Assembly: GCF_018977255.1 (NCBI RefSeq)
Contig: NW_024704742.1
Span: forward strand, 123,816,001 to 123,880,000
Direction: 5' to 3'
Length of the DNA stretch: 64,000 bases
Source of the DNA: Callorhinchus milii
Lineage: Eukaryota
Each line of letters begins with the position of its first letter. Within the stretch, counting starts at the first letter, position 1. The position numbers were made by a program, and so were the translations under genes. This document shows positions 17,056 to 53,740 of the stretch, piece after piece. Below the pieces are notes generated by a model that saw only the letters and a program-made list of their open reading frames with translations, was not told the DNA's origin and made no database searches.

Positions 17056-17457
17056 ATGGTGGCACAGCCCGCGGTCCCGGGGCAGGTCCGGGGCAGTCCG
17101 GCCAAGAGGAAGCGCCCGGGCTCCGGCCAAGAGGACGTCACCCCCGAGGACAGGGCTGAGATGACCTGCGGCAGCGCCAACACCAGAGCCCCCGTCAAGA
17201 AGCCCAAGTGCCCGCGGCACAGGAAGCAGGACCTGGTCTCCAGGGCTGGAGAGCCCGGGAGCCGCCCGGACCAGCCCAGTCCCTCGGGCTCTGCAGACCC
17301 GGGCAGCCCGGCTCTCGGCTCCGGGTGGTCGCCCCCCGGACCGACCACCGGGCTGGACCTGCAGAACTTCAGGGAGTACGGAGAGAAGTGCTTCCTCTTC
17401 AAGCGGGAGTCCGAGAAGAGGTTTCATCCGCGGAACTGCCTGGCACAGCAGCCCCAG
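17056..17457 (+). CDS. CCNO: Cyclin O, coding exon 1
   Basis: GCCATGG start (MVAQ, cf. human MVTP; an in-frame ATG at 17026 is an alternative); RAPVKK and LDLQNFREYG...FHPRNCLAQQPQ match human RAPVKK and LDLQTFRDYG...FHPREALARQPQ; donor cag|gtgagg. Join 17056-17457, 19040-19225, 20262-20744 = 356 aa. Confidence 0.92.
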
Positions 17458-17948
17458 GTGAGGGGGAGAGGGGGGGGGACAGGGGGGGGGGGGACAGGGG
17501 GAGACAGGGGCGGGGGGGGACAGGGGGAGACAGGGGGAGACAGGGGGAGAGGGGGGAGACGGGGGAGAGGGGCAGAGGGGGGGAGACAGGGGCGTGAGGG
17601 GGGGGACAGGGGGAGACAGGGGGAGAGGGGGGGGAGACAGGGGGAGAGGGGGGGGAGACAGGGGGGAGACAGGGGGGGGGAGATGGGGGGAGACAGGGGG
17701 AGACGGGGGAGACAGGGGGAGAGGGGGGGGAGACAGGGGGAGAGGGGGGGGAGACAGGGGGAGAGGAGGGGGAGACAGGGGGAGAGGAGGGGGAGACAGG
17801 GGGAGAGGGGGAGACAGGGAGAGGGGGAGAGAGGGACAGGGGGAGAGGGGAGAGACAGGGGGAGAGGGAGAGGGGAAGAGGTAGAGAGGGAGAGGGGGAA
17901 CAGGTGAGAGAGAGAGAAAGAGAGAGAGAGGAAGAGAAAACGAGAGAG
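17458..17948. repeat. G-rich polypurine tract (GGGGGAGACA-like units) at the start of CCNO intron 1
   Basis: Directly visible; many G4-G9 runs on the non-template strand. Confidence 0.95.
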
Positions 17949-18318
17949 CGCCTTTCTGGTAACGTTATAGACACAGCGATAGTCGTTGCTCTACAGAAAC
18001 GTTATTATACTTATTTTTATTATCGTTGTTATACTATTATTGTATTAGCAACTCTTAGACATCAACCCCCCCCCTCCCCCCCCCCCCTCCCTCCCCTCCA
18101 TTCCTCTCTCCCCTCCATTCCTCCTCCTCTTCGGCAGTGAGTTTATGACAGAATCGTGGCTTTTGTAAACTTTTAAACGCGACAACAACAACAACAACAA
18201 CAACCCCAAAGAGTTCTTGTTTGAGTCGCGTTATACGTTTGCAAACAGAACGTTATTTTCCTTCAGACCGGCGCTGACCGTCGGGGCTTCTTTGCTGCGC
18301 TGTTTGCAACAACTTTTT

Positions 18319-18625
18319 ATCCTCGCATTTGATATAGCGCTTTTCACGTCGGGAGGACGTCCCAAAGCGCTTCACAGAACACACTGCAAAGTGAATTGAC
18401 TGTATATTTGTGGGCGAACGCGGCAGCCGATTGCGCACAGCAGTGTCCCACAAACCGTCGTAGATTGAAAATGACCAATTTATTATTGTTTTGGGTTTTT
18501 GGAGGGATTGTTATTAGGCTCTGTGTGGAGTAAGGAAACTTGCCCAAGGTTTCGCCCTCTGCCTGGGATTGAACTCAGGTCTCGCTTGCAATTCGAGTGC
18601 TCTAACCACTGAGCTACAGGACTCC
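18319..18625 (-). mobile_element. Near full-length tRNA(Ala)-derived Deu-domain SINE in CCNO intron 1
   Basis: Reverse complement of the 45636 and 53418 copies, head GGAGTCCTGTAGCTCAGTGG. Confidence 0.9.
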
Positions 18626-18787
18626 TACTTGGCTTGGGGTCGCCCACAGCCCCGGCTTCTGTGGGCAGACACACCTGTCTTGTGGACAGACAGGCAGACA
18701 GATAGGTTTGTCTGCCCACAAAAAGCACATCCTAAAAGTGACACCCGGCGCTCCCCGAGTGGCTTTGGTCTGACCGCTGCTCTGCAT

Positions 18788-19003
18788 CCACACACAGAGC
18801 CTAATAATAATCACTCCAAAAAAACAAAACAATAATAAATTGGTCATTTTCAATCCACCACTGTTTGTGGGACACTGCTGTGCGCAATTGGCTGCCGTGT
18901 TCGCCCACAAATATACTTTACAGTATATTCTGTGAAGCTCTTTGGGACGTCTAGAAGACGTGAAAAGCACTATATCAAATGCAAGGATTATTATTATTAT
19001 TAT
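18788..19003 (+). mobile_element. Headless Deu-SINE copy, inverted relative to 18319-18625
   Basis: Same body and tail with (ATT)n end, about 35 nt before the CCNO exon 2 acceptor. Confidence 0.88.
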
Positions 19004-19039
19004 TTTTACATCAGTCCTGTTGTTGCACTCTCTTCACAG

Positions 19040-19225
19040 GTAACCTCAGAAGACAGATGCAAACTGGTCAGCTGGCTGATCCCCGTGCACAGGTACTTTG
19101 GCTTCTCCTTCGAGTCAATGTGCCTGACCGTGAACATCATGGACCGCTTCCTGCAAACCACACCGGTGGCTTCCGATTGCTTCCAGCTTATTGGAGTCAC
19201 CTCACTTCTCCTCGCGTGTAAACAG
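19040..19225 (+). CDS. CCNO: Cyclin O, coding exon 2 (cyclin box)
   Basis: cag|GTA...AAACAG|gtgagt; [62 protein letters not shown] is near-identical to human CCNO; 186 nt, phase 0/0. Confidence 0.97.
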
Positions 19226-20261
19226 GTGAGTGAGTGCAGTGTGCACGAACCCCCCCCCTCCCACCCTACACTCCTCACGAATTACTCGTTCAGGTCAACA
19301 CAGGATCTTTTTTTAAAAAAAACTTCTTGGCTATTATTGGTATAGAGAGCGAGGCAAGTAACTCTCCACGTTTAGGAAGCGTAGAGTTGCACACACACAA
19401 CCATCACCACCACCGACAACCAGTAAAATGTATGGATCCAAAACATTCCCCCCCCACCAACCCCTTTTTTTTACTTCTCATGTCTAGGTTTTGCAGACTC
19501 TATAAACCTTGATAAACTGACCACTCATTATGTATGATCCTACTTGGTGTTGGCAAAGTACACAGCCATGATGGTGGTGGGGGGCTGTTGGGAGGGGTCA
19601 AAGCTAAGTCATCTCAAATAAATATCTGTACTTTCTTAACCCTGGTTGTTATCCTTTTCATCTTCCAATTTAGCAGTAAATTGCAGTATGCCTGACTTTA
19701 GTTTTTCCAATGCTGCAAAACGTTATTTGTTATTGGTTACTTTTTTTAATGACAAGTGTCGTAAATAAAGCATGCATTTTATAGAAAACCTACAATACTC
19801 GAAATGTCTCCAAGCCTTTTAGGATAATTATTATCTAACAATGACTAGATGGCGTAGTGACTGTTATCGTGAGTAAATCTGTACTTTGAGGAAAGTTGAA
19901 ACATCAACAACTCGCGCCTTTCACATCAATGGCAAATGCACTGTAAGTAAGTATCAAGAACACAGGCAAAAATAAGCGTCTTAAACTTGGTAAAGCATTG
20001 GAAGTATGCCCTCTACTAAACAATCATATGACAGATTATTTAAGGTGGAGTTGTCCCCCCCACACCCCCAACTCCCTCCCCCCAGTGTGAGGGCTGAAAT
20101 CCACATTGAAGGCAGCAGTAGCTATTCCTAGATATCACTTAACTCTGGTATTTTGACTAATATTGGTTTAAACAGCTGGAGGAATAACTAGTGGGCAAAG
20201 GATGCAGGATCGCATTGTATCCCTATTTGTCATCTAACCACCTTCTCCCCCCTCGTTGCAG

Positions 20262-20744
20262 GTTGAAGTTTACCCTCCTAGGGTTAAACAGCTGCTGTCC
20301 CTTTGCTGTGACGCCTTCACTGGGGAACAGCTCCGTAACCTGGAGTGCATCATCCTGATCAAACTCAACTTCCAGCTGGCGGCTCCAGGGCTGGACTTCT
20401 TCCTGGAGTATTACAGCGAGGCCAGCGGGGAGGGGCAGGAGGTGTGCAGTGCCCGGGCTGCCAGCACCCAGGGCCTGGCCAGACAGATCGCCCAGCTCAG
20501 CCTGGCTGATTACTCCTTCAATGGCTACCCTCCCTCCCTGCTGGCCATGGCTGCTCTCAGATTGGCCGAGCGCATGTTTCAGCACCAGGAAGGCACCAGT
20601 GAGCAGCCCAACCATGACACAGCCTGCGCCCTGGAGGACTGTGTGGAGAGACTCAAGCTGCTGGTGGCTCTGAATGAGGAGTCGCTGGTATCCCTCCTGA
20701 CATTGGAGCTGACACACAAGGAAGAGCTCAGCGCTGAGTTATAA
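20262..20744 (+). CDS. CCNO: Cyclin O, coding exon 3
   Basis: ttgcag|GTT; VEVYPPRVKQLLSLCC...LSLADYSFNGYPPSLLA...ALEDCVERLKLLVALN matches the human CCNO C-terminal cyclin fold; TAA ends at 20744. Confidence 0.97.
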   Translation, partial: VEVYPPRVKQLLSLCCDAFTGEQLRNLECIILIKLNFQLAAPGLDFFLEYYSEASGEGQEVCSARAASTQGLARQIAQLSLADYSFNGYPPSLLAMAALRLAERMFQHQEGTSEQPNHDTACALEDCVERLKLLVALNEESLVSLLTLELTHKEELSAEL

Positions 20745-24108: not shown

Positions 24109-24210
24109 ATGCAGAATGGAAGGAAGGTATTCGGAGAAAGTTATCCCAATAGGATGGTGCATCTGCCCAGTCAAATATCAGACAAGAAGCACCCGAAATT
24201 TGAAAAGAAG
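24109..24210 (+). CDS. MCIDAS: Multicilin, coding exon 1
   Basis: MQNGRKVFGESYPNRMVHLPSQISDKKHPKFEKK (human MQ...RRAFDSICPNRMLALPGR...KPERK); donor aag|gtaaat. An in-frame upstream ATG exists at 24043. The 7-exon join gives 385 aa. Confidence 0.85.
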
Positions 24211-24713
24211 GTAAATATTTCTACTTCGTTGAGTTATGGCTTCTGGCCGTTGCTTAACGAGAGAGGTTAAACATTGATGGCCATTTATTGAGGTTTACAC
24301 ATTTCAAGTCATATTTAATGTTATTGTGCAAATAAATGTCGACGTGCAATCACTAAAGGATCGGTAATTTGATCGGAACATTTATTTTAATATAAATTCA
24401 AGTCGTTTGAACAGATGTAAACTGTTACAGTATCATAGCTTTGGGTTAATATCAGTCTCTTATCTCGACTTGACACATCACTGGAGCTTCCTGTCTACGC
24501 TCTTCACATTGTTAGTGAAGTTCTGATGATAGGACACTTTATTGAACTGTTGGCTCCTTTGCATTCTACCTATTTAACATTTTTGTAGTTGTGCAAGGTT
24601 CAGAGTTTCATCCTTAGATATGTACAACCTTACAACCTGAGCAGTATTGTATATGTTGTCTGCAACTGACATACTGACTCTGCATCTCTATTATACTCTG
24701 CTGTGCTGTACAG

Positions 24714-24795
24714 AAAGATCAACACAAGTCACACAGAACAAGCGACTTGCAGGTGACCGTTCTTTCCGAGGTAACGGGGATTGCAGCAAACCCAG
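24714..24795 (+). CDS. MCIDAS: Multicilin, coding exon 2 (divergent)
   Basis: tacag|AAA...CCAG|gtacag; 82 nt, phase 0 to 1 as required to join exons 1 and 3; KDQHKSHRTSDLQVTVLSEVTGIAANP has only weak similarity to human. Confidence 0.6.
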
Positions 24796-24892
24796 GTACA
24801 GTCATTGCATGTTGTTATAAATCATGGACAGAGAGCTGTTCATCAACACACATTGCTACTCTCCTGTAAACCTCGCACCGCTTTGCTTTTAG

Positions 24893-24987
24893 CATTCGTG
24901 ACTATAGATGAAACTGTGTGGCAGGATTTGGCGGATTGCACATCATCAGTTCTACATCATGAAGCTTCAATTGAACCCATTCAGCAG
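24893..24987 (+). CDS. MCIDAS: Multicilin, coding exon 3
   Basis: ttttag|CA...CAGCAG|gtaagt; FVTIDETVWQDLADCTS matches human LTTIDLQDLADCSS. Confidence 0.88.
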
Positions 24988-27900
24988 GTAAGTGTAACAG
25001 CAATGTCAGTAGCAATCCACTGTTTCTGTACCTGTCCACCTTTGTGTGTCAGCCTGACTGTGTTGGGGGCTGCATTGGCAAGAGTTGGTGCTCTTCCAAT
25101 GAGATAAGCTAAGGTCTTGTCTACCTGCTCAGGTGGATGTTAGAGATCCTTTGAACAGAGAAGGGAGTCTTGGCCAACAATCAATTCATGGCTGTTTGTG
25201 GGAGATTGCTATACACACATTGGCTAATACATTTACCTGTAAAAATACACAGTCACCACACTTTGCAGTGTATCCTATGAGATGTTTCCAATGATGTGAT
25301 GACACTGTATCAAATGCAAGGTTTACTATTTGTACAGGTACAGAAAATATATTAACACACTGGCGTGAGAGAGTTTCTAGCTGCAATCTTACTTGTTGAA
25401 CTAATGACGTCATCAAGGCTATTCGATTTGGAGCAAACAAAAAGTAAAATTAAGTAAGCTTTCCATCAAAAATCTAAAACACCAACTTGCACTTATATAG
25501 CGCCTTCCAGCAGGGTGAGCGCTTAACAGTGGCAGAGCCTGACTCGAGCTGGGGGGGATGGGGGGGGGGGGGGAGCGGTGAGGGGGTGAGGGCGGTGGGG
25601 GGTGGGAAGTGACCTTAAGTATGGTCGAAAAGGAAGGCTTTCAGGTGGGACTCAAAAACGTGGAGAGACTGCACAAGGCGGAAACCAATGCAAAATGTTT
25701 AAAAACACAGTGTAATCAGCTCAATCTGTTATCTAGAGCAAAATATCATGGTTGTTTGCCGAATACACCAAAGATATTATCATAAACGTTGCAGTATATT
25801 TTGTTAATTATCTTATCACTTGAGATAATAACCACATCTTTGATAAATGTGATTGAGAGATAGTCGATAATAGGACTTCTGTGTGGGTGTGACCCCTCAC
25901 CTCATCCAGTGAGAGAGGCTAATCACAAAGCCACCATTGCAAGCACATGGAGCATAGCAACTGGAGAATGATTTACAGGATACCAATGTATTCAAAAAGA
26001 AAATTCAGAGCCGTGCCCATATGCCATTAACTATTATGCTCACTGAAAGTCTTATTAATGACTTTCAATCATATTTATCAACAATATGTTAATGAACGCG
26101 TCATAAATTGCAAATTTCGCTTCATCGTTTCATTTTTAAAACATGAATTTTTCAGGTCACTAATGAAATAATGTGGTGTTAGGTGTGAGTATATATGAAT
26201 AATCTGTGAGCCCACAAAAGACACAGTCAATCCATTTTACCTTACGTGCTTCAGATGAGATATTAAACCAGGGTCCCATCTGCCTGTTCAGGTAGACGTT
26301 TAAGATTCCACGGCACTCTTCAAAAAGAGAAGGGAGTTTCTCCCAGCGTCTTGGTCAAAAATCCCCAAAATAAAATTGGACACTTACTCCATAGCTGTTT
26401 GCGGGACATGGTGTGCGCAACTAGCTGCCACATTTCGCCCACACAATACGCAGTCCTCTGCTTTCAATATATCTTGTGAAGTACTTCCAATGAAGTGATA
26501 AGATGTTATATCAAATCCAAGGATTATTATTATTATTTACAGTATATCCTGTGAAGCGCTTTGAGATGTCTCAATGATATGATAAAGCACTATATCAAAT
26601 GCAAGTATTATTATATCTGAGTAAGTGAGTATAATCTCCTATCATTTACATTTTACTGTGTCAACCCAATTATTGATAGACTACCTGTTTTTAAAATCCT
26701 TTCATCGGGTCTCAAGAATAAAATTTGGAAGAGTGCCAACTCAAAATGGAATGAGGTTTAAGCTATTTGCCAAAATAATTTTACAATAATGTTACAGATT
26801 TAAAACAAATCATCACTTCAATTTCATAAGCAGCAACCATTCAGTGTAGTTCTCTTCATTTCAACTGAACTGATCACACAAATATATCAACTTTTCTTCG
26901 ATCTTTGTATTAAGTCGTAACATAAAATAGTTGCCTAGTTTTATGGCAAAAATGCAATATCTTTATCTTAAGATGAGGCAATCAGTTCTTTTCTGCTAAG
27001 AAAATATTGAACAGAACAGCATTTCACTTCTCAAGAGAAATTAGTCAAGATTGATTCAGGAGCTGTCTGTCAATTGCTTTACTGATTCACTGACATGAAG
27101 GTGCTATATAAATAATAATAATACTTGCATTTCATATAGCACCTTATCATGTCATTGAGACATCTCAATGTGTTTCACAGGATATACTGTAAAGTTCACT
27201 GAATGTGTGTTTTGTGGGTGAAATGAGGCAGCCAATTGCACACAGCAGCGTCCTACTAACAGTCATGGATTTATGAAGTGACTAATTTTTTTAAGTAACA
27301 TTAAATAGTAAAAAAAATTAAAATGAATGTTGCAGCTATAATGCAACAACAACAATAATATCTTACATTTATGTAACACTTTTCACATTGTAGGACATCT
27401 CAAATAGTCCTCATTACAGATAAATAAATTAATTAGAACTAATTATTTACAAACAGATTACTCTTGTGGTATTATTTAAATGCTCAATGAGACCACGGGA
27501 GTACCCACAAGGTAATTGTAGCTGGCAATGAGATACAATTTATAATTCAATCAAAATACTCTCCTGGTATTGTGGACTGTGCACAAAATGTTATGAGCTG
27601 TTAACATCAGTAGAAACTAAAGATTAAATTTCAGTCTTAAACTCTCTGAGAGATAGATCCTAAATAGTTTAGTTCAAACAATAATTTGACTTTGCTTATT
27701 GCTACTATGAGTGGTTTAACCCACCCACTTTCAACAACAGCAGCAATAATTTATATTATTTGTTTGGTCAGTCAGATGTCTACATACCCATCAGAAACAA
27801 CAACTTAAATTTGTTTAGTGCCTTTCACTTCGGGAGAGCATGCTAAAGTGCTGGACAGTCAAGGATTTGCACCCAAGCTGAGCGGAGGGAGCGGACAGGT

Positions 27901-29636
27901 CAGTATGGAGATAGAGGTAGGGAGGAGCACATTAGGCCATGGAGATCCGCCAATTACAGCCATGTTGGGAGGAGGTAGAGGGGTGGAGCCAAGTTGGCCA
28001 AATCCTGATCTCGAACCCCCCTCACCCCACCCAATCTTTTGACTCCAAATCTATTCCTGGACCTGATGGAGGTGAACAAAATGATGAATTATAATGTTAC
28101 CTGAACAGACAGGTGGGATTACTGTTCATTGGAAGAGTTGTTCAACATATTGTGCAATCTGGAAGCTGAGAAGAAAGATCAGCATTTAAATGGTTAAAGT
28201 ACTTCAGATCTGGATACAGGGATTAAGACACCAGTGAAAACTGCAAGCGCTCCTATAGCAACTATTAGAACACAGACCTGCATCAATCATTTACATTAGG
28301 AAGATAGGCTCCTTAAATTGCATTGACAAATATTCCACTTTAACTGCCATTGTACACCTTTATACTGTACTTCACAAGACAAACACTGGGATTACTTTGT
28401 AACGAACAATGAAAGTACCAATGGGCAGAGTTTGACTGTTACATGGGGGGAGGAGGGGGCACTGAAATGAGAATGGTGTGGGGGGTGGGGAGGGGCAGAA
28501 AAAAAATCAGGCAATGAGTCTTGGGGGGCACTGGAGGCCTCAGTGGTTCCAGCGGCAGTACCCGGGTGGGAATCTGCGGCTGCTCATGGATTTTCAGCAT
28601 TTTTCAGCAAAGGAACCAGTCATACAGCAAAATATCTGGTCTGTTTGTGGGGACTGCAGGCCTCCACGTTTCACCCACAAAATGTACAGTCAATTTACTT
28701 TACAGAAGCGCTCTGGGACGCCACCCCACATGAAGAGCGTTATATAAATGCAAGTTGTTGTTGTTGTCTCCAGGCATCACCTCACCCTTGTACACACACG
28801 CTCCACCCAGTTCACTGCACAAACACAGCAACAGCAACAGGCGGTTGTTGGATTTGTGTCAGTGCTCAGGGCAAAGGAAACCCTGCAGATCCAAGACACG
28901 GTGAATTTTTGGGGGTGAGGGGTGAGGTGAGGTGGGGGGGGGTGTGCTTAGCCACTTCAAGCCCCAGTCAAACTCCACCTACAAAAGCATCTTTGATCAT
29001 GCAGTTAATTCCATTCATGCTGATACGGTACCTAAAAGCAGCCTGAAAAATTCCATGGCAGAATACACAAGGGCAGGGGTTAGCTTTGAAATCCCCGAGT
29101 GAGTTTAATATTACAGCGAAGTCCGTACAAAACGCTGATAGTGCTGTGGGGCTTTGATACTGCAACCCACTCCCACATACCAGTCCTTCTGTCTTGGGAA
29201 TGGTTCACCTGTTGCTAAAGATATGTACAACATACGCAGGGTAAGTAGCTTAACTCCTAAAGTCACCTCAAAAGAGTGAGATAAATATTTTATGTTTCGT
29301 ATTTACAACAACAACTTGCATTTATATAGCATACCTCACACAGGTTAGTGTTCCAGAGCACTTGAAAGCGGAGGTAATGGGGGTACAGGATGAACTGCTT
29401 CCACCCCCTGCCCCTAGATTTTAGGTGTATGTTTGGCACTTTTACCTCCTGCTCCAGATCTCTTCCCATTGCTCTGTGCATCGCCCTGTGCCACATGTAA
29501 CTTCGTGAGAGGCAACGCAGAGAACGAGAGGAAGAGAACCAGAGTGAGGGGTATGAGGCAGGGTGCAGAGCGATGGGAAGGTGGCACCACTAATGGCTTG
29601 TCATTGAGAACACTGACTCGAGGGCTTCCTTCTGTT

Positions 29637-30548
29637 TATACAACAACAAAAAACAGAATAACATTTGTATAGCGCCTTTTACGTCGGGAGGACATCCCAA
29701 GGCGCTGGACAATCAATGCTTTGGACCCGAGCTGGGGGTCAGAATCGGGCAGGATGGAGGGCAGGGGGGGAAGGAGGGTGATCGAAGGCATGATCGAAGA
29801 GGAGGGTCTTGAGATGGATCTTGAAGGGAGGGGGTGAGGCAGAGGGACTCTGCGATGGTGTTCCAGAGGGTGGGAGCAGAGGGCTGAAGGCCCATCCACC
29901 AATGGTGAGGTGGTGAACGTGAAGCAGGCTGGAGCCCACTGAGTGGAGGGAGTGGGCAGGTTGTTAGGGGGTTAGGAGGTCACAGAGGTAGGGGGGAGCA
30001 AGGCATTGGAGGGCTTTGAGGGTGAGGACCAGGATCTTGAACTGTATCCTCTGTGTGATGGGAAGCCAGTAGAGTCGCACGAGGATGGGGGTGATAGGGT
30101 CATGGAACCTGGTGCGGGAGAGGACATGGGCTGCAGAGTTCTGGAATATCTGCAGCCTATGTAGAGAGGAGTTGGGGAGACAATCAGGGCGTTTTCATAG
30201 TCAAGCTTGCATGTTATGAATGCTTATATGAGGGTTTCAGCGGCCTGGGGTGTGAGACAGTGGTGGAGCCGGGCGATGTTGCAGAGGTGGGGCAAGGCAG
30301 AGCGGCGCATGGCTCAGATGTGGGGTAGAATGGATAGTTGAGGGTCAAACACGATGCCAAGGTTCTGGACTGGCTTAGCAAGGTGGAGTGTGCTTCCTCG
30401 GATGGTGATACTGTCAGTGCCTGAAGTGTGGAGGCGCTGACAGGACCCTACCAGGAGGACCTCGGTCTTGTTAACGTCCAACTGACGAAAATTAGCTCTC
30501 ATCCAGGACTTGATGTCTGACAGACATTCTGTCAGTGGTCCTGGAGTC
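29637..30548 (-). mobile_element. L2 LINE 3' fragment in MCIDAS intron 3
   Basis: LTECLSDIKSWMRANFRQLDVNKTEVLLVGS...VQNLGIVFD RT C-terminal motif plus 3' UTR and tail. Confidence 0.88.
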
Positions 30549-32119
30549 AAGGGTACATCTAGAATAACTCTACCCATTAGGGCTTTGATTCCAGGGTTAA
30601 CAGGAGATGAGTGGGAAGAATTCCTACCCAGAATAACTGTCCCTCCAACTACTACCGCTGAGGCAGGCTGGCCGTCAAGCAGTGCTGTAGAATAGACTGC
30701 AGACCTGTCCGGATCAAGAACCGTCAGATCCATGGTACTCCACAATTTGCACTATTAATAATAGTAATAATAATAATAATTTGATCACTCAATCCACGAC
30801 TGTTTGCGGGACACTGCTGTGTGCAATTGGTTGCCCCGTTTCACCCACAAAATGCACAGTCAATTCACTTTACAGTATATTCTGTCAAGCGCTTTGAGAC
30901 ATCTCGACGATGTGATTAGGCGCCATATCAAATGCAAGGATCATTATTCTCAGTCTTATACTAAACTCAGGTGATTGCACTACACATTGTAATCTCCGGG
31001 CTCGTGCGTGTCGGGCTGTTGGCTTCTGCGGAAGGTGGAAAGGCGGAATGGATTGGGGTTTCTGCGGGGATGCAAATGAATCACAAGTTGTCGGACAAGA
31101 ACTGCAGCAGGTCAATAATAAACCGGGTGGGTGGTGTCTGAGCTGTGGGTGTTGGGGCTTCTTTGGAAGATTGGCATTACGTAAATCTGGGCGGACAGGA
31201 GGGTGTGGCAGAAAGGTTTGCCTGGAGTGAGTGCCAAGCCTGAGCCTGAGGGGGAGAGGCCGGGCTGATCTCTGGAAGTGTTTGCTTTAGTGTGAAGGTA
31301 TTTGCGAGGAGGAGCAGGTGCCCTGTGGTTGGCTGTGTGGCCGCCCCCGGGTAGAGGAGCAGCCAAGTTGTCTGTGCGGAGGCTCATGCGGAACGAGTGG
31401 CAGTTCGCGTAACGCGTGCCAACCACCCCCTCAGCTCAGCTCAGCTCAGCTCAGCTCAGCAGCAAACTCCCGACAGAGACCAGGAGACGATAGAGCAGAT
31501 CTCACACACACACAGCCCCGGGTTTATTGAAGCCCGGAGTCAAGAGTGGGGCACTGGGTACCAGCGCAGGTCGCCACCAACATCCACCCACATCCCCTTG
31601 AGGGTCAGACACCTCGGACACTTACGCACTCTCACGCGTCTCTCCCTCACCCTCCAGGGGCAGTGTAAGCGTTTTTTTTTGTTGGGTTCAGAAAACCGTT
31701 GCTATTCTCCCCAACCGGGCAGTTTGATCGCTGCCACGTTGACTCGAAGAAGCAAAGCAAACACCAAAACAGTCTGTTACTCCCAAAGCAGCGATAGTCC
31801 CCTCTGTAGGCAAACCACAGGCTCTCCACCTCGACAGCTCTATCAATGGCACTCCAGACTTGTTACATGCAGTTTCCTCAATGGGGCTTTGAATTCCGGG
31901 TATGTACCTGTTCTCTTTTTTTTTTATGCAATGCAATTAATCTTTGCGTATGTCGTTAGGTATATGCACGACACATGCACACGCCGACAGGGCTGTTATG
32001 CAAATCCGGTATCGATTGCGGATCGCACAGAGAAATTGTCCTCTGTCATCATTACGCAGAGTCGGTGCAAGATTTCGATAAATGTAATATTTTGATGCTA
32101 CGAGTTCCATTATTTACTT

Positions 32120-32151
<32 letters not shown>

Positions 32152-32155
32152 GCAG

Positions 32156-32225
32156 AGCCAATCCCTGCACGAAACACCTGATTTTGACCTGCAGGATTTC
32201 GAAGATGTTGATATTCTCATGTGTG
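32156..32225 (+). CDS. MCIDAS: Multicilin, coding exon 4
   Basis: ttgcag|AGC...TGTG|gtaagt; SQSLHETPDFDLQDFEDVDILMC (human [24 protein letters not shown]); 70 nt, phase 0 to 1. Confidence 0.88.
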
Positions 32226-32990
32226 GTAAGTCTGCGTGATTTCGTTCGGGTCCAATGTCACACACGTCGTTGCAGAGCAGTAAGTAAGTGGGTGTCTGTA
32301 ACCCACAGACGTGTTCCATCAGTCGTTGCCACTGGAAACAAAACAAAACCCAATCGGTGAAACGTGTTTTAAGAAAGCAGTTGCTTAAAATCCTCCCTAC
32401 CTCCTGCTGCAAGTGTCTGTCCTTGCGATGTGTAGCTGTGTTGCAACACTCTTCCCTAAGTTTGGACGATTTGCGAAAGCAATTCACGATCACACTTCAA
32501 TTTCAATCGCTATTTTCTCACGGGCACCGTCTGCTCCAACGACACGTTTTATTGAACACACACCGAGAGACAGCGGAGTCGGATGAACACAGCGCGTAAC
32601 GTGTTGCTCTCGCACAGCAAACGGAGCGATTGAGAATCTCTCTGTGAGGCTTTTCCTCGCAAAATACGCAGCGAGACAGTGAACTGGAGACAGTGAACTG
32701 TGGCGAATGCAATTACACGGGAACCTTCAGGTCACATCTCTGTGTCTGTCGGTGAGGTGTTCACTCAGTCAGTAACATTCCTGCCGAAGGTTTGCTGACA
32801 GCCAACCAAAACACCACCACCTCTGTCCCACCTGCAACAGGTGCCATCGATGCTCCTCGCTGCCCCCCAACGCTACATTCATTAGCCTAAAAAGGTAACG
32901 AACACTGACAGTAATTGCACAGAGCCCCGAGTTTTCTTCCTCGTGTTAAAACCAAATGAGAGACACCACACCTGTATCTTCTGCCCACAG

Positions 32991-33223
32991 ACCCCACCTA
33001 TTTGATGCACCCCCTGCCCCTGGCCGTGTCGGAGCTGCCGCTCTCTGACTGCTGTGTGGCTGATTTTGAAGCCTGTATTTCTACCTCAATCCCTGACACC
33101 GACGACCCTCTGATGCAGATGAATCTGCAGACGGACCACACGCAGCCGCCAGAGCAGTTCTGGAAAGATGTGGCAGAAGAAAATCAGAAAGCACTGGGGG
33201 ACGCGCTGGAAGAAAATGAACAA
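32991..33223 (+). CDS. MCIDAS: Multicilin, coding exon 5 (start of geminin-type coiled coil)
   Basis: cacag|AC...CAA|gtaaga; PPEQFWKDVAEENQKALGDALEENEQ (human [26 protein letters not shown]). Confidence 0.95.
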
Positions 33224-34678
33224 GTAAGAAAGATGAAGGCATTTCCTCCTCTCTTGTAGATAATGTCAGATTGGCTCAGTTGGTGAGCACTCTGCACCTC
33301 TGGATCAGATGATTTGGGTTCAACCCCCATGTTGAGAATCGAGCTCATAGACCAGACTAACACCCCCCTGCATCTGTCACCTTTAAAATGCACAGTCACT
33401 ACAGTCACCACACTTTACATTAAATAGCATAAAATGCTTTAAGAAGTCCTCCTGATATGAAAGGTGCTGCATCAAATGCAAGGACTGTTGCTTTCCTTTA
33501 TTTAAGACATTAAACCAAGGTCCTATTTGGTTGCCCAGGTGAACATTAACACTCCCATGCCCATCATTCAAAAAGAGAAAGGAATTTCTCCCAATGCCCT
33601 CATGGACAATCCAGATAAATACATTCTTCACTTCATGGCTATTTGTTGGACTTTGCTTTGGTACTAATTGGTTCTCACAATTGCCTAAAAATACACAGTT
33701 ACTACATTTGCCTACAAATACAGCAATCACCTGTGAAACACTTTGAAATATTTTGATCTTGTAGGCGCTATATTGGTTGAAAGAATTATTTATTATATGC
33801 TCACTGTAACATTGTTGACGATTGTATAATGTTGACATAGATATATAGATATTGTGAACAATTACCGAAATCTGAATGAACAGCAAATTCAACAGGTATT
33901 TTGTCAAACCAAAATCATGCTTACTATCAAAGTTAGCTGGTCTTTGCTAAATATTTGTGTGTGTGTGTAAATTTCACATATTTAGCATGACTGGCTAGCA
34001 TTGCTAAGCAACAACGACTAAACTTCCTTTCTCGAGACCCAACAACCAACTGGCTTTGTGGAACAGTGCTGTGCGCAAAATAAGAATTTGAAATCCTAAT
34101 TATTTTACACGAATACGGACCTTGTAAAATTCTCCCCTATTACAAAGATAATGGTAGAGTTTTATACACCAATGTTGAATTAAAACATTACTTATATGTC
34201 AAATATGAATGAAGATATCCTAATTTGAATGCAATTTCAACCCAATTATTAAGGTTCACTTCATTCATACCCTTTAGGATCTTGAACACTTCAACAAAAA
34301 TGCCCCATTAGCTTTCTATAATGTAAATACTTTATAGCTTCTCCTCATAATTCAGGTACTCAATTCCAGTTATTAATCTAGTTGTGCTTCACTGTAGGGG
34401 GAAGAGAAGGGCATGGCAAAGGGCTGGCACTCTCGAGTGGGAAACAACATGGCTAGCTAGTATTGTGTGATACAATAGTGATGGTATAATACTTGATAGA
34501 GGAAAATTTTGGTTACATCTGTATATTGTATTTTGTGTGACAATTGGTGTGACATTCTGTTTTCTTATCCACAATTGGAATGATCTCAATTAGTGAGATA
34601 TCCGGTTCAATATGATATCATTAAATTAGTTACCATCTGAAATAACTGGCTAAATCTGAAATGTGCTTTCCTTTTCAG

Positions 34679-34789
34679 TTGCACGTCACTTTAGAAAGAA
34701 AACAATATGAAATTGTGTCTCTGAAGGAAAGAAATATCCAGCTGAAGGAACTTGCCAGCAAAGCTAAACATCTGGCATCTATACTTGAT
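34679..34789 (+). CDS. MCIDAS: Multicilin, coding exon 6 (coiled coil)
   Basis: tttcag|TTG...GAT|gtaagt; [37 protein letters not shown]; 111 nt. Confidence 0.96.
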
Positions 34790-35039
34790 GTAAGTTTTTT
34801 TAGAAGCATTTGTCAGGGAAAGTGCATAGTTTCACCACTAGGGACATCATTAATAAGGAAACAAAATAAATGAGATAAGGAAATGGGCCAGTCAAGCCTT
34901 CTCCCTTCTCAGGCCATGCTAAACCTAATTTATGGCTGACTTCACCCCCACCTGCTTTATCTCTTCAGCATACAGAGTCCTCGCATTCCAATGTTAATCA
35001 AGGAAACTTCATAATATTCTCCCATGTGGATTATTGGTT

Positions 35040-35620
35040 TGGCTATGCTAACTCTGCTTGTAGGCCTTCCAAACTCTTCCTTCCACAAGCTGCAGATTAT
35101 TCAGAACTCTGCAGCTTGTGTCCTCTCCCACCCAAGCTTTGTGACCCTATCACCCCCATCCTTGCCCGGCTCCACTGGCTACCCATCCTACAAAGGATAG
35201 AGTTTAAAATCCTCGTCCTCACTTTCAAAGCCCTTCACGGCCTTGCTCCTCCCTATCTCTGTGATTTGCTAACCCCATATAGACCAGTCTGCTCCCTCCG
35301 CTCAGCAGACTCCCCCCAGCCTTTCTGTCCTGCCCACCATCAGCGGTTGGTCCTTCAGCCTCTTTGTCCCCACCCTTTGGAACTCCATCCCACGGTGTGT
35401 TCACCTCCTCCCCCCCCCCCCCACCCTTTGCCTCCTTCAATGCACTTCTCAAGACCCTCCTCTGAGCATGCCTTTGGTCACCTTCCTTCCCTTGCCCTCC
35501 CTGCCCTCCATCCCTCCTGATCCCAACCCCCAGCTCAGGGACAAATCTCTGACAGTCCAGGACCTTGGGATCTCCTCCCAGCGTGAAAGGCGCTATACAA
35601 ATGTCATTTGTTGTTGTTAT
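35040..35620 (+). mobile_element. L2 LINE 3' fragment in MCIDAS intron 6
   Basis: PITPILARLHWLPILQRIEFKILVLTFKALHGLAPPYLCDLL L2 ORF2 C-terminal motif and (TTG)n tail. Confidence 0.9.
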
Positions 35621-37373
35621 TCAAACATTGGATCAAAGAAGCAACAGGTCACCACAGGATTCACGAACAGCAACTCAGAGTTTACAATGGCAAATAGAAG
35701 AATGTGTGTGCAGTTGTTTGTGTGTGATAAAGAGAGAGAGTGTCTCTCACACAATACTGTGTACACCTGGGTGGGTTGTGTTGATTCTCTCTCATACAAT
35801 ACAACAGCAACAACTTGCATTTATAAAAATAATAATCCTTGCATTTGATATAGTGCTTTTCACGTCTTCTCAACGTCTCAAAGCGCTTCACAGAATAGAC
35901 TGTAAAATGCATTGACCGTGTATTTGTGGGCATTTATGTTGCAATCACACGGATAGCATCCCGGAGCGCTTGACAGTGGCAGAGTCTGATGCTGAATTGG
36001 GGAAGAGGGAGATGACCGTAAGCACGATCAAAAAGGAAGGTGTTTAGGTGGGATTTGAAAGTGGGGGTGGGGGCACAGAGGGATGGAGGGGGCAAGGCAG
36101 AGGGATTGAGGGTGAGAGAAGTGGCAAAGTTGAAAACAAAACTAGAACACTACCATCAGAATAAGAGTGCCAGGATCACACATGCATCAGTTATTTCACA
36201 CTACAGAACAAACCAAACACAGGTCTATTTGTGGAGGAAGGATGAAAAAAATGCACCTGTGCTCTTCAAACAAGACAACCACAAAGTAGACCACACAATA
36301 CAAAGTGGTTTAATGTGTGGTGACTCAATGGAGATCTACAGTAGCAGCAGCTCATGAAAAGATCAGAGCCACAATTTGTTTAGTGTTGCACATAACATAC
36401 AGCTTCAGAAAAGGCCATTCAACCCATTAAGCTGCTCCATCTATAGACCAATCCCATGGTGAATTTCCTAGTCTTCATACCTCAATCTCTTGGGGATGTG
36501 GGAAGCTCTGCCGCAATATATTTTTAATCCCAAAAACATGCAAGTTAAAGACTCCGAAGAAAGCATGAATGTAAAAATGTCAAATGGTCCATTAATATCA
36601 TTCCTTCCACAGACAATGCAAAACGTATTGTAAGGCAGACTCCACACACCCACTCTATCTTTTGGGAGAAAAGTTTGTGTAGATATCCCTTGATCCCTAA
36701 GGGTAATCAAGTTAAAAATCTAGAATATTCATCCATCTCTGCCATTTGACATATCTTCCATTGAGCGAAATAAGTGACACACAGAATTTATGGTATTAGT
36801 TAGTAAAACAATTTGCAATATGATTCTCTCTGATGTTCCTATCAGTAAAAAAATCAAGAAAAAACAAGTCATCATATTTTAATTTATGTAGAAATATACA
36901 TTAATGTCGACCCTACATTACAATGGGTCAGGCTATAGTCCATTTGCTGGTCAGCACTTCTGAGTCAGGATCCAATGACATCATCACTGCTATATCACAA
37001 GCATTACCAGTGATTTCTAGAATATTAGGGGGATATCTGGAGACTCACACTATGGGCTTGAAGCCAAGAAAGAACTGCACACTGTGGGTACACACTGCAC
37101 ACACCCTATATGTGGTCCTGTAGTACACCAAAGTGCAGGACAAAGATATTCGGCTATATTTTATACACACCCTGGATTATATTTCAGGGTAGCTTGGCAT
37201 TGAAGTAATGTTGTTAAATGACTCAAACTTCACTCTTTTGCTTTATAATATTATCTCAAACCGATCACATCATTGTACCAAGCTCTACATTGTTTGTTAA
37301 CTGGTATTGCTGATGTAATGCAGCTCTGAGTGAGATGCCTCATTAATGGAATGTACTTTTGATCCTTAATTAG

Positions 37374-37838
37374 AAAGTAATGAAGCAGGAAAGTCAAGCT
37401 CCCAGTGAAGTTCTGCCTGAGACCTTTCCCCTGAGATCTCCAACTAAACGCCAAAGGTTTGACGACCCTTACTTTGGTAACCAGGACTGTGAAAACGTGG
37501 ATGAGATTTTAAGAGATATCTCAGAAAAATGCAACGCAGCTTTGCAGACATTTAATGGTACAGACTATGAACATTTCAAGGCAACTGTTAACTCAGGAGA
37601 AACTAGTTACAATGAAAGCAAGGAGACCATCAACATGTATGGGAGTTTCAGTGGATTACAAACATCCACAGCCTGCAGCACTGTAAACTTGAGCAACAGT
37701 GACCTGGACAGTGACACATCTTTTAAAACTTCAATTCGTGACCATTGCACAATAAGAACATTAGCATTTCCTCAAGGCAATGCATTCACCACCAGGACAC
37801 ATAATGGTGGTTTCAAATTCCGATGGAGTCCCAGCTGA
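37374..37838 (+). CDS. MCIDAS: Multicilin, coding exon 7 (TIRT domain)
   Basis: ttag|AAAGTAATG; ends SFKTSIRDHCTIRTLAFPQGNAFTTRTHNGGFKFRWSPS*, the diagnostic MCIDAS TIRT domain that binds E2F4/5-DP1. Confidence 0.97.
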   Translation, partial: KVMKQESQAPSEVLPETFPLRSPTKRQRFDDPYFGNQDCENVDEILRDISEKCNAALQTFNGTDYEHFKATVNSGETSYNESKETINMYGSFSGLQTSTACSTVNLSNSDLDSDTSFKTSIRDHCTIRTLAFPQGNAFTTRTHNGGFKFRWSPS

Positions 37839-37846
37839 AATGAGGA

Positions 37847-37869
37847 TGATCAGCTAACTACACTGACCA
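37847..37869 (+). promoter_or_regulatory. Extensively complementary miR-34b/c and miR-449 binding site in the MCIDAS 3' UTR
   Basis: ATCAGCTAACTACACTG (37849-37865) is the exact reverse complement of nt 4-20 of miR-34c-5p (AGGCAGUGUAGUUAGCUGAUUGC), followed by a 1-nt bulge and CC-A. Confidence 0.75.
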
Positions 37870-37936
37870 GTGGGATCTAATTGATTTAACATTATTAATT
37901 GCTGCACATCAGCAAGCTCTCTATGCAACTATTTTG

Positions 37937-37944
37937 CACTGCCA
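37937..37944 (+). promoter_or_regulatory. Canonical miR-34/449 8mer seed site in the MCIDAS 3' UTR
   Basis: CACTGCCA, complementary to seed GGCAGUG plus a t1 A. Confidence 0.65.
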
Positions 37945-38751
37945 GCACTTAAAAATGACTAAATTATCCCCAAGTAGAGTTTATGTTCAGTTTCAAATAA
38001 TATTACAATGTTTTGGGATGTATTGTAAAAATATAATGTAACAAATATACATTTTAAGTTTTTTTTTATACAGGAAGTCTTGAAGTCATTTGCGATTTAA
38101 AATATACTGTATTGATATGTTTGAAGATCTTATAAACAAAGTAAATTATTGGCTATATATATTTGTCTTGTCAATTCTGTGGCTTAATTTTGTTAGGATA
38201 GTGATAATGTAAGGGGTGTATTGTAGTTTGTGTCAGTGTATGTAACAAAGAAGAAATACAAATCACAGCACATCTTGTTATGGTGGAAGTACTTGTTATT
38301 CATTATTGCTCTGCATGTCCATACACATAGGAGTGATGTGGTTCAAATACTGCTTGATCTGTTACCTTAAAATGGGGCAAAGAATAGTTTTAGGTTCAGA
38401 ATAATGATGACCGAGCTATTCAACTCTGTTACAACCTCGACACAATTTGTAAGATTAGGAATAGTGAAAAATAAGTGCTTTGAGATGTGTCACTTTACAG
38501 CATATTTATAGTATATCCTGTGAAGTGATTTGAGACATCGCAACAACATGATAAGGTGTCATATCAAATGCAAGGATTATTATTATTTTTGCATTGCCTG
38601 TAAGAATATACAGCACAATGAAATCTACAGCAACAACACAATTGCATTTGTATAGCGCCTTTCACACCGGGAGGACTTCCCAAGGCGCTGGAAGTGTTGC
38701 AAATGAAGATTATTGCAGCCAGTAACCGTAAATACAATACAAAATATCACA

Positions 38752-39650
38752 CAAAGTTACATTTGTAAAGCGCCTTTCAGGGAGGGAGGACATCCCGAGG
38801 TGCTGAACAGTTAAGGATTAGGTATTAGGAAGCGTGTAGGGAAAAGAGGATAGGTGAGTGGCTGAAGGCATGGACGAAGAGGAGGGTCTTGAGGCTTGCC
38901 CTGAAGGAGGCAAGGGAGAGAACGAGACAAAGACAATATGGGGTGGAGTTCCAGAGGGTGGGGGCAGTGAGGCTAAAGGCCCGACTGCAGATGGTGTGCC
39001 GGGCAGGAGAACATGGGCCAGGCTGGAGCCTGCTGACTGGAGGGAGTGGACAGGTTGCTAAGGAGTTAGCAGGTCAGAGATGGGGAGACAAAGTGGAGCT
39101 GGTATGAGAACCAGTAGAGGACAGATCCTTGAAGGTTGAAGTGGAAGGAGATGTGATGGAGGAGGATAGAGTGGTCCACAGTGTCGAAGACAACAGAGAG
39201 GTCAAGGAGGATGAGGAGACAGAGGGAACCCTCGTCACAGATGGACAGAATGTCATTTGTCACCTTGATCCGGCTGTTTCCTTGCTGTGGGCAACACGGA
39301 AACCCGATTGGGTGGGGGGGGGGGGAGTTGTGAAGGAAATGGCAGGAGAGGAAGATGTGAAGCTGGGAAACAACTCTTTCAAGGAGCTTGGAAAGGAAAG
39401 GGAGGTTGGAGATAGGGTTGTAGTTTGTCAGCAGGGATGGGTTCAGGGAAGGTTTTTTTATGATAGGGGTGATGACAGCTGTTTTTAAGGGAGGTTGGGG
39501 GGAACGGTGCCAGTTGACAAGGAGAGGTTGATGAGGTCTGAGAGTAAAGGGGCGGGAGGTGGAGCTGCGAGTTAAGGAGAGGTGTAGGGCTGGGATCGAG
39601 GGAGCAGGTAGTGGGCTTCAAATGTTGAATGAAGTACATAGATGGATTGA
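38752..39650 (-). mobile_element. Internally deleted L2 LINE
   Basis: TNDIL...LLILLDLSVVFDTVDHSILL RT motif and TTCSLDPSPTPLL upstream motif joined to a 3' UTR. Confidence 0.85.
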
Positions 39651-40206
39651 GGGACATTTCACAATGGTCTTCTGACTCTTCTCCCGATGACTGAAATTCT
39701 GGAAAAGACCCTGGGCTTCAAAAATCTTGTGTCTGTTGGCTAGGAGTTACCTCTACCATTGTTACCTTGAAAAACTGTTATTATGTTAAACATTTTGTGA
39801 TTTAGTTCAAAAGACCATAGGAAGTGGCCATGAACTGCAGTTCATCTCAGAATTAATAAGAGGAACATGCTTCAAAAATCTTTATTAGAAATAGAAGAAT
39901 TTGGGCCTCAGATATCTCTTGTTTTAAATTTAAAAATTATACGGCCTTTTAGAAGTCTTTCATTCAGTCTGAAAGTTGGCTTACTGCAATTGTTTTTCGG
40001 TGCTTCGGTAAAATCATTCTCCACATAAAAATCAAATTTAAGTGTGTTTTCCAAACTTCTGCACAACCATAAATTTTAAGGCAATGGTGTCACTTCATCA
40101 AAGAACATGAGAAATTTGGGGTAACCTGTTTGAAAGAAAAGAACATAAGAATAAATTACATGGAGACACCTGTTGTACTGTATTTCTTTTTGGTTAGCCA
40201 GGTATC

Positions 40207-41259: not shown

Positions 41260-41584
41260 ATAATAATAATATAATAATAATAATCCTTGCATTTGATATA
41301 GCGCTTTTCACGTCTTCTTGACGTCTCAAAGCGCTTCACAGAATAGACTGTAAAGTGAATTGCCCGTATATTTGTGGGCGAAACGCGGCAGCCAATTGCG
41401 CACAGCAATGTCTCACAAACAGTCGTGGATTGAAAATGACCAATTTATTATTGTTTTGTTTTGGAGATATTATTATTAGGCGTGTGGAGTAAGGAAACTT
41501 GCCCAAGGTTTCACCCTGCCTGGAATTGAACCCAGGTGACTCGCTTGCAAGGTGAGTGCTCTAACCACTGAGCGACAGGACTCC
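41260..41584 (-). mobile_element. Full-length tRNA(Ala)-derived Deu-SINE
   Basis: Head, Deu core and (ATT)n tail present in reverse complement. Confidence 0.9.
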
Positions 41585-53417: not shown

Positions 53418-53740
53418 GGAGTCCTGTAGCTCAGTGGTTAGAGCACTCGCTTTGCAAGCGAGAGACCTGAGTTCATTTCCAGGCAGGGCAAAACCTTGGG
53501 CAAGTTTCCTTACTCCACACGCCTAATGGTAATCCCTTCAAAAAACCAAAAACAATAATTAAATTGGTCATTTTCAATCTACGACTGTTTGTGGGACATT
53601 GCTGTGCGCAATTGGCTGCCGCGTTCGCCCACAAATATGCAGTCAATTCACTTTACAGTGTGGTCTGTGAAGCGCTTTGGGACGTCCTCCCGACGTGAAA
53701 AGCACTATATCAAATGCAAGGATTATTATTATTATTATTA
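53418..53740 (+). mobile_element. Full-length young Deu-SINE with TTGAT target-site duplication
   Basis: Near-identical to the 45636 copy; TTGAT at 53412-53416 and 53741-53745. Confidence 0.92.

What the first reader, a model, noticed from the sequence alone, without database searches (positions are those of the whole stretch)
37847..37869. Near-perfect miR-34c / miR-449 complementary site just after the MCIDAS stop: candidate slicing or TDMD trigger
Seen: TG-ATCAGCTAACTACACTG-A-CCA begins 9 nt after the TGA. Established (recalled sequences): miR-34c-5p AGGCAGUGUAGUUAGCUGAUUGC pairs with it Watson-Crick over nt 4-20 (17 contiguous, spanning the 10-11 slicing position), G:U at nt 21-22, one bulged target A, then nt 2-3 and a t1 A. 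miR-449a UGGCAGUGUAUUGUUAGCUGGU also pairs end to end except a 2-nt central miRNA bulge (nt 11-12) and the same seed bulge, which resembles the geometry of target-directed miRNA degradation triggers. A specific 17-mer has a chance of about 1 in 1.7e10 per position, and miR-34b/c and miR-449 are the miRNAs of multiciliated cells, with mir-449 encoded in the neighbouring CDC20B in other vertebrates. Inference: a feedback module in which these miRNAs cleave or strongly silence the master regulator's mRNA, and/or MCIDAS mRNA turns over miR-449. Such extensive pairing is rare in animal mRNAs and I do not know of it being described for MCIDAS.
Basis: partly seen in the sequence, partly recalled or inferred. 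Interest (0 to 1): 0.9.

Follow-up and report, generated by a model that had tools for sequence, protein, structure and literature searches.

The report
Near-perfect miR-34b/c site in MCIDAS
In the elephant shark, the messenger RNA of MCIDAS, a master switch for multiciliated cells, carries an almost fully matching site for the microRNA miR-34b/c, as do its sister gene GMNC and cyclin D2, which suggests this microRNA may cut these messages rather than merely dampen them, something rare in animals and not yet tested.

Summary
The site is real. It lies 9 nt after the MCIDAS stop and pairs Watson-Crick with nt 4-20 of this genome's own miR-34b/c. The seed is flawed by one bulge, or one mismatch at nt 3. 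Its location is what is non-random. Only three non-miRNA places in 992 Mb lie within one mismatch of the complement of nt 2-20: this site, the last coding exon of the paralogue GMNC, and the CCND2 3' UTR (inferred), all in sense orientation. A canonical 8mer also lies 68 nt downstream. The four catalytic residues of AGO2 are present, and miR-34b/c has three determinants of fast slicing. Best reading: a negative-feedback element, with repression by the whole family at the 8mer and probable slicing by miR-34b/c at the extended site. TDMD is unlikely: the seed is imperfect, and miR-34/449 do not rise in Zswim8-null mouse lung. No cleavage or expression data exist here. The extended site is absent in the one teleost examined, so conservation is open.

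The parts
37847..37869 (+). Extended miR-34b/c complementary site in the MCIDAS 3' UTR: nt 4-20 Watson-Crick at 37849-37865, G:U pairs at 37847-37848, bulged A 37866, nt 2-3 at 37867-37868, t1 A 37869; predicted cut between 37858 and 37859
   Evidence: present in contigs of 4 of 4 DNA runs, t1 polymorphic in 1 of 4
37937..37944 (+).
   Evidence: the only + strand 8mer in the 64-kb window; about 0.0015 expected in 660 nt of this composition
37374..37838 (+). Last coding exon of MCIDAS, with the stop codon at 37836-37838
24109..37838 (+). MCIDAS (multicilin) coding span; exons matched near 24109-24210, 24892-24987, 32171-32224, 32990-33223, 34679-34789 and 37374-37838 (inner borders approximate)
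   Evidence: tblastn with shark multicilins
37848..37882 (-). Possible relic of an old tRNA-type SINE: the core motif overlaps the site, with weak likeness over the next 14 nt
   Evidence: flank score reached by 1.3% of random places; no match on the other side
17341..20741 (+). Cyclin O-like gene upstream of MCIDAS (synteny context)
   Evidence: the name CCNO rests on the fused snake model P0047 and on recalled synteny

Best explanation
The site is a selected miR-34b/c target element that helps end the MCIDAS pulse in differentiating multiciliated cells. (1) Shown in sequence: the MCIDAS 3' UTR carries an 8mer that any miR-34/449 member can use and an extended site that only miR-34b/c pairs without a central gap. 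(2) Known from mouse and frog: the GEMC1/MCIDAS programme lies upstream of miR-34b/c induction (through p73), and miR-449 shares the locus. (3) Inferred: once miR-34b/c is abundant, AGO2 binds despite the flawed seed, because nt 4-22 pair, and slices between 37858 and 37859. miR-449 and miR-34a pair with a central bulge and can only repress. The seed flaw makes the site depend on 3' pairing, and so on which family member is present and how much of it. (4) Inferred: the same miRNA acts in the same way on GMNC (site in the last coding exon, G-G mismatch at nt 6) and on CCND2 (3' UTR, one G:U at nt 11), shutting off both master regulators and a G1 cyclin. The origin of the MCIDAS site is open: exaptation of a SINE motif (about 45%) or point evolution (about 55%).
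For: Within one mismatch of the complement of miR-34b/c nt 2-20 the genome holds 5 places: 2 miRNA genes, MCIDAS, CCND2 and GMNC; 0.44 were expected. All 3 of 3 lie in sense orientation in or just after coding exons. Leaving out MCIDAS, which was the starting point, the chance of 2 more in mRNA is 1e-4 to 5e-3, for an assumed 3-10% mRNA share and an expected count of 0.44 to 1; this ignores that the genes belong to one pathway. Controls with three other family arms gave 2, 1 and 0 such hits, and 0 of these 3 lay in or within about 3 kb after a coding exon I could recognise by eye. Independent 8mer. The GMNC residues A-N-Y-S-A cover target positions t16 to t2 exactly and are 96-99% conserved in 120 of 266 homologues listed; the neighbours show 51-78% before and 63-72% after. 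Given the peptide, the codon choice that makes the shark GMNC site has a probability of 4e-4 to 1.5e-3. This genome's AGO2 keeps residues aligned to human E637, F666 and D669, and the motifs that hold D597 and H807 (numbering recalled). miR-34b/c has U7, A10 and U17, three determinants of fast slicing, and a G:G at nt 6 does not hinder slicing (PMC11100590, passages and introduction). In mouse, Mcidas and Gmnc mRNAs rise in miR-34/449-null choroid plexus and fall on miR-34b/c re-expression (10.64898/2026.08.30.747939, passages).
Against: There is no cleavage, reporter or expression evidence for this species. The flaw lies at nt 3-4, inside the nt 2-5 region where pairing nucleates, which should slow binding. 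The extended site is absent from the one teleost-like mcidas examined (best match 7 mismatches in 780 nt of UTR; only a 7mer-m8 225 nt after the stop). The t1 A is polymorphic in 1 of 4 runs. Two departures from perfect pairing (the G at 37848 and the bulged A) are both SINE-consensus letters, and 2 SINE copies have the same shortened spacer. The 3'-pairing part lies within 15 nt of the stop (ribosome shadow, recalled) and is predicted to be paired locally. ANYSA lies close to a conserved protein block and may be a protein motif; 13 of 120 homologues, mouse included, have P in place of S before it. The mouse study explains the Mcidas change as indirect, through Gmnc 3' UTR seed sites.
Confidence: 0.5

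Rival explanations
1. The site is functional but not sliced. It acts as a 3'-compensatory site that recruits AGO with TNRC6 and adds deadenylation and translational repression to the 8mer, with preference for miR-34b/c.
For: Imperfect seed with long 3' pairing is the geometry of this class. The nearby 8mer works without slicing. miR-449, the more abundant member in mouse lung (7361 against 902 CPM for miR-34c), cannot pair centrally.
Against: Compensation needs only about nt 13-20. It does not explain unbroken pairing over nt 9-12 at MCIDAS and GMNC, nor full pairing of nt 2-22 at CCND2.
Confidence: 0.24
2. The extended site is a neutral relic of an antisense SINE fragment that drifted into a good match. 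Only the 8mer regulates MCIDAS.
For: The genome has 136 matches to the shared SINE motif against 0 for the reversed control. Of the first 100 listed, 6 have the 5-nt spacer, and 3 of these (MCIDAS and two SINE copies) begin it with the same four letters. The 14 nt after the site resemble the SINE (1.3% of random places score as high; 11 of 31 SINE copies score lower). The site is absent in a teleost, and t1 is polymorphic.
Against: The other flank has no SINE likeness (0 of 31 copies score as low), and the 25-nt flank is at chance (26%). The profile matches only 26 positions, 6.3 bits. A neutral relic would have to land 9 nt behind the stop of a multiciliogenesis gene that also has an 8mer. 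The GMNC and CCND2 sites show no SINE match.
Confidence: 0.17
3. MCIDAS mRNA is a TDMD trigger that turns over miR-449 (central bulge with 3' pairing) through ZSWIM8.
For: Three of four miR-449 arms pair with a 2-nt central bulge and 7-10 pairs at the 3' side. miR-449c was reported as more degraded in control than in ZSWIM8-knockout mouse striatal cells (PMC12144122, passage).
Against: There is no canonical seed match at the extended site. In E18.5 mouse lung, control to knockout CPM are 558 to 424 (miR-34b-5p), 902 to 717 (miR-34c-5p), 7361 to 6662 (miR-449a-5p) and 1080 to 1119 (miR-449c-5p), while miR-7a-5p goes from 226 to 3356 (PMC10620050 Table S1; column order inferred from miR-7a and miR-322). 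Mcidas and Gmnc do not occur in the TDMDfinder supplement. The mouse may simply lack the site.
Confidence: 0.07
4. The site is a decayed inverted copy of a mir-34 gene, or a hairpin gene of its own.
For: It has 17 nt of identity with the miR-34b/c arm.
Against: There is no hairpin on either strand (z -0.15 and -0.42, against -3.7 and -3.1 for the true precursors). There is no Rfam mir-34 match here, and no likeness to the precursor flanks was apparent.
Confidence: 0.02

Closest known systems
miR-196 site in the HOXB8 3' UTR and other endogenous AGO2-sliced mRNAs (example recalled; PMC11100590 counts 20 miRNAs slicing 24 transcripts in mammals)
   Same: Near-full complementarity across nt 10-11, one flaw in the seed, a developmental regulator as target, and related miRNA genes in the same genomic cluster.
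   Different: The flaw is a bulge or mismatch at nt 3-4. Cleavage is not shown. Three genes of one pathway carry such sites, one of them in coding sequence. The MCIDAS site may be SINE-derived and lineage-restricted.
[quoted passage not shown]
   Same: The same miRNA family dampening the top of the multiciliogenesis cascade by negative feedback.
   Different: Those are TargetScan seed sites tested by luciferase, and Mcidas is treated there as indirect. The passages I saw mention no extended site and no coding-sequence site; the supplementary target table could not be seen.
3'-compensatory sites such as let-7 in lin-41 (recalled)
   Same: An imperfect seed rescued by long 3' pairing, giving specificity for one family member.
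   Different: Here central pairing is unbroken, which permits slicing.
TDMD triggers (Cyrano-miR-7, NREP-miR-29b; recalled)
   Same: Long 3' pairing; a central bulge with miR-449.
   Different: The seed match is not canonical, miR-34b/c pairs through the centre, and the family is not ZSWIM8-sensitive in mouse embryonic lung.

Membership tests
miRNA-directed AGO2 cleavage site | Watson-Crick pairing through nt 9-12 and on to at least nt 16-17 | tested here: met
   nt 4-20 unbroken with the genome's own miR-34b/c
miRNA-directed AGO2 cleavage site | Seed pairing good enough to nucleate | tested here: inconclusive
   nt 4-8 paired; bulge between nt 3 and 4, or a mismatch at nt 3; effect on rate not measurable here
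miRNA-directed AGO2 cleavage site | Slicing-competent AGO2 in the species | tested here: met
   Residue level only: E637, F666 and D669 aligned to human AGO2; D597 and H807 motifs seen
miRNA-directed AGO2 cleavage site | Cleavage product opposite nt 10-11 in vivo or in vitro | not testable with these tools
   needs degradome, RACE or a slicing assay
miRNA-directed AGO2 cleavage site | Site lies in the mature mRNA and is co-expressed with the miRNA | tested here: inconclusive
   It lies 9 nt behind the stop in the terminal coding exon, so it is in the mRNA by anatomy; co-expression was not examined
miRNA-directed AGO2 cleavage site | Conserved above background | tested here: inconclusive
   Absent in one teleost-like lineage; no DNA of other cartilaginous fishes or tetrapods was reachable
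TDMD trigger | Canonical seed match | tested here: not met
   Seed interrupted at the extended site
TDMD trigger | Central bulge plus extensive 3' pairing | tested here: inconclusive
   Met for 3 of 4 miR-449 arms and for miR-34a, not met for miR-34b/c
TDMD trigger | miRNA rises on loss of ZSWIM8 or of the trigger | not testable with these tools
   Not testable in this species; published mouse lung values show no rise; miR-449c was flagged in one mouse cell line
Canonical 8mer seed site (37937-37944) | Match to nt 2-8 plus t1 A in a 3' UTR more than 15 nt from the stop | tested here: met
   99 nt after the stop; the poly(A) site is unknown (no canonical signal before 40150)
SINE-derived sequence | Likeness to the repeat beyond the motif used to find it | tested here: inconclusive
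   14-nt flank p about 0.013 (one of four tests); 25-nt flank and the other side at chance
mir-34/449 gene or remnant | Stable precursor hairpin, Rfam match | tested here: not met

The most novel reading that the evidence does not exclude
miR-34b/c acts as a plant-like slicer on a small regulon (MCIDAS, GMNC, CCND2) that is ancestral to jawed vertebrates. The conserved A-N-Y-S-A peptide of GEMC1 is then the footprint of a cleavage site kept inside coding sequence from sharks to humans, with its G-G mismatch at nt 6. This would give AGO2 catalysis a direct role in ending multiciliated-cell specification, and make synonymous variants in those codons candidate causes of motile ciliopathy.
Probability: 0.2. 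Interest if true: 0.92.

Novelty: new member of a known kind. Interest (0 to 1): 0.7.

Why it matters
Only about two dozen sliced transcripts are counted in mammals, and how the MCIDAS/GEMC1 pulse is switched off is poorly understood. The finding gives exact, cheap tests: three predicted cut positions, a reason why miR-34b/c and miR-449 may not be fully redundant, and a check on five GMNC codons that any vertebrate alignment can settle. If the MCIDAS site came from a SINE, it is also a case of a repeat motif that happens to be pre-adapted as a microRNA target, of which this genome holds many copies.

Tried and rejected
RNA runs: no RNA holder listed; this says nothing about expression. Cross-species DNA: a single-sequence scan of metagenome contigs found 0 relatives among 64 candidates; the alignment scan found 2 of 296, which are 98.8% alike and so count as one lineage; prokaryote genome contigs gave 0 of 188. 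No read-through or mis-annotated MCIDAS or CCND2 protein showed the site as a peptide (0 of 200 proteins). A full-text search for four words of the MCIDAS and GMNC sites found 0 papers, and one zebrafish supplement held no probe sequences. Eight two-mismatch sites with an intact seed (8 of 16) were fetched; none could be tied to a coding gene. The shark and teleost UTRs align only weakly, in an AT-rich stretch away from both seed sites, so the seed sites cannot be called orthologous. A local hairpin spanning the stop codon is not above shuffles. The tool's reversed-pattern control is too low for this motif (0.07 against 0.43 expected at one mismatch), so I used Markov expectations and sister miRNAs instead. 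Two primary papers (Chen, Sive and Bartel 2017 on the G-G mismatch and teleost Ago2; Becker et al. 2019 on cleavage rules) were not held. The G-G point rests on PMC11100590; impaired slicing in fish rests on the 2017 title in its reference list and on recall for teleosts. Earlier scan notes held nothing on this site.

Full report
Observation. The window is part of a 992-Mb vertebrate assembly. The ORF ending at 37838 is the last exon of MCIDAS: 100% identical to an elephant-shark multicilin and 63-75% to ten shark and ray multicilins. Earlier exons reach back to 24109, and a cyclin O-like gene lies upstream. The site stands as described, starting at the ninth base after the stop. The genome's own miRNA genes were found with Rfam models: two mir-34b/c hairpins with one 22-nt 5p sequence, one mir-34a, and four mir-449-type arms about 41 kb past the site on the same strand. 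With these, miR-34b/c pairs at nt 4-20 Watson-Crick, nt 21-22 by G:U, and nt 2-3 beyond one bulged A (-33.6 kcal/mol, 0.86 of perfect). A bulge-free register with one mismatch at nt 3 also fits. miR-34a and the miR-449 arms reach 0.45-0.63 and have central gaps. Contigs of four DNA runs of one study cover the site with no gap; one of the four reads G at the t1 position.

Chance. Over both strands an order-3 Markov model expects 0.15 exact 17-mers and 7.8 one-mismatch matches; 1 and 9 non-miRNA matches were found. An old repeat also carries much of the motif: 136 matches against 0 for the reversed control. Its copies align over about 250 nt and show a B-box-like stretch, so it is read as a tRNA-type SINE (family name not determined). 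Two copies have the same shortened spacer as the MCIDAS site, and both the G at 37848 and the bulged A are consensus letters of the repeat. Outside the motif the evidence is thin: the next 14 nt score above 98.7% of random places, the 25-nt flank and the coding-side flank do not, and the profile matches only 26 positions. A SINE origin is therefore possible but not shown. A miRNA-gene remnant is excluded by folding and Rfam.

What makes it non-random. First, a canonical 8mer for the whole family lies at 37937-37944, the only + strand 8mer in the window. Second, a genome-wide search for the complement of miR-34b/c nt 2-20 gave 21 places within two mismatches and 5 within one: the two miRNA genes, MCIDAS, and two more. 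One is in the last coding exon of GMNC, the MCIDAS paralogue; it pairs nt 2-5 and 7-20 with a G-G mismatch at nt 6 and a t1 A. The other lies 1,119 nt after the stop of CCND2 and pairs nt 2-22 with a single G:U at nt 11 (0.95 of perfect). That it is in the UTR is inferred: two weak poly(A) signals lie upstream of it and canonical ones downstream, and the mammalian UTR is at least 1.77 kb long by the site coordinates. Expected count 0.44. Three sister arms gave 2, 1 and 0 one-mismatch hits outside miRNA genes, so three hits alone is only a mild excess. But none of those 3 lay in or near a recognisable coding exon, against 3 of 3 here. Setting MCIDAS aside as the starting point, two more mRNA hits have a probability of 1e-4 to 5e-3 under the assumptions tried. 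Of the 16 two-mismatch places, I fetched the 8 with an intact seed and could tie none to a gene; at least 3 others are SINE copies.

Conservation. For the MCIDAS UTR only one other lineage could be read: two near-identical metagenome contigs with a teleost-like mcidas. It has no extended site and one 7mer-m8 225 nt after the stop. This fits a lineage-restricted site, or loss in teleosts, whose Ago2 slices poorly (recalled; the title cited says 'fish'). For GMNC, the five residues A-N-Y-S-A are encoded by exactly t16 to t2 and are 96-99% conserved in the 120 best of 266 homologues, which include sharks, coelacanth, lungfish, amphibians and amniotes; I saw no teleost label among them. Conservation drops on both sides. 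The serine opposite nt 5-7 is never threonine, the residue a perfect seed would encode. Given the peptide, the shark's codon choice has a probability of about 1e-3. This is suggestive only: a 5-residue protein motif near the conserved block upstream would look the same, and no codons of other species were seen.

Mechanism. The C2 Argonaute is read as AGO2 (best match, solitary position, recalled signature residues) and keeps the four catalytic positions. PMC11100590 (passages and introduction read) names a purine at nt 10 and A or U at nt 7 and 17 as determinants of fast slicing; miR-34b/c has all three. It also reports that a G:G at nt 6 helps, or is neutral when nt 7 is already weak, as here. 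The same text places nucleation at nt 2-5, where the MCIDAS site is flawed, so MCIDAS is the weakest of the three for binding and depends on a high miRNA level. The most likely picture is delayed negative feedback: the MCIDAS/GEMC1 programme induces miR-34b/c (review PMC8834061, passages), the family represses at the 8mer, and miR-34b/c slices at the extended site. The pairing is shown; binding, slicing and the feedback in this species are inferred. TDMD is unlikely: the seed is not canonical, and in Zswim8-null mouse lung miR-34b/c and miR-449a/c do not rise while miR-7a rises about 15-fold (PMC10620050, rows of Table S1). One cell-line study flags miR-449c.

Literature. Ten searches were run (listings and abstract starts). 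I read passages of the 2026 choroid plexus preprint, PMC8182409 (passages and supplement hits), PMC4595761, PMC12492746, PMC8834061, PMC10689204 and PMC12144122; supplement hits of PMC8887481, PMC10620050 and PMC8524669; and a term search of a 2026 AGO2-slicing preprint, which does not mention these genes. None of what I saw describes an extended miR-34/449 site in MCIDAS, GMNC or CCND2. Gmnc is described as a seed-site target in mouse, with Mcidas as indirect. The preprint's table of 197 candidate targets could not be seen, and subscription journals are not covered, so an earlier mention cannot be excluded.

Verdict. The feature is real. It is probably a functional miR-34b/c element (about 75% for either functional reading, 50% with slicing), and it is one of three such sites in one pathway. 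It is of a known kind, but if confirmed it would add new members to a short list, and it is directly testable. The main gap is conservation.

Noticed in passing
L021:1494-1520 minus strand (G000:C11:1505893-1505911), GMNC last coding exon: Near-perfect miR-34b/c site in coding sequence with a G-G mismatch at nt 6; it encodes the conserved peptide A-N-Y-S-A.
   Followed up: partly
L019:1495-1525 minus strand (G000:C5:29539673-29539691), 1,119 nt after the CCND2 stop: Site pairing miR-34b/c nt 2-22 with one G:U at nt 11, with a second 7mer-A1 seed match overlapping its 5' end; the best slicing candidate of the three.
   Followed up: partly
L024-L053 and many other places; window copies near 9123-9391, 42657-42865 and 56623-56837: An old tRNA-type SINE family whose antisense strand carries 12 nt complementary to miR-34b/c nt 9-20 and a near-seed; a genome-wide pool of latent miR-34 sites.
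   Followed up: partly
L004:1509-3040 (G000:C1:123895223-123896803): Four mir-449-type arms in about 1.6 kb, one more than the three of mammals (recalled); they differ at nt 11-13.
   Followed up: partly
L001 and L003 (G000:C25:7676612-7677903): The two mir-34b/c hairpins give the same 22-nt 5p sequence, which doubles the dose of the one family member that pairs without a gap.
   Followed up: yes
L073 (G000:C10:18066948-18066966, minus strand): An 8mer plus pairing to nt 20 with two G:U pairs, a few kb downstream of a GC-rich region; no coding gene recognised.
   Followed up: partly
L064:1030-1038: The teleost-like mcidas 3' UTR has a 7mer-m8 miR-34/449 seed site but no extended site.
   Followed up: yes
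window 37839-40150: No canonical poly(A) signal for 2.3 kb after the MCIDAS stop; the UTR is long or uses a variant signal.
   Followed up: no
window 2465-2536, 6060-6125, 41511-41582, 45638-45709, 53420-53491, 54254-54314: Six tRNA-like matches of similar sequence, probably heads of another, younger SINE family.
   Followed up: no
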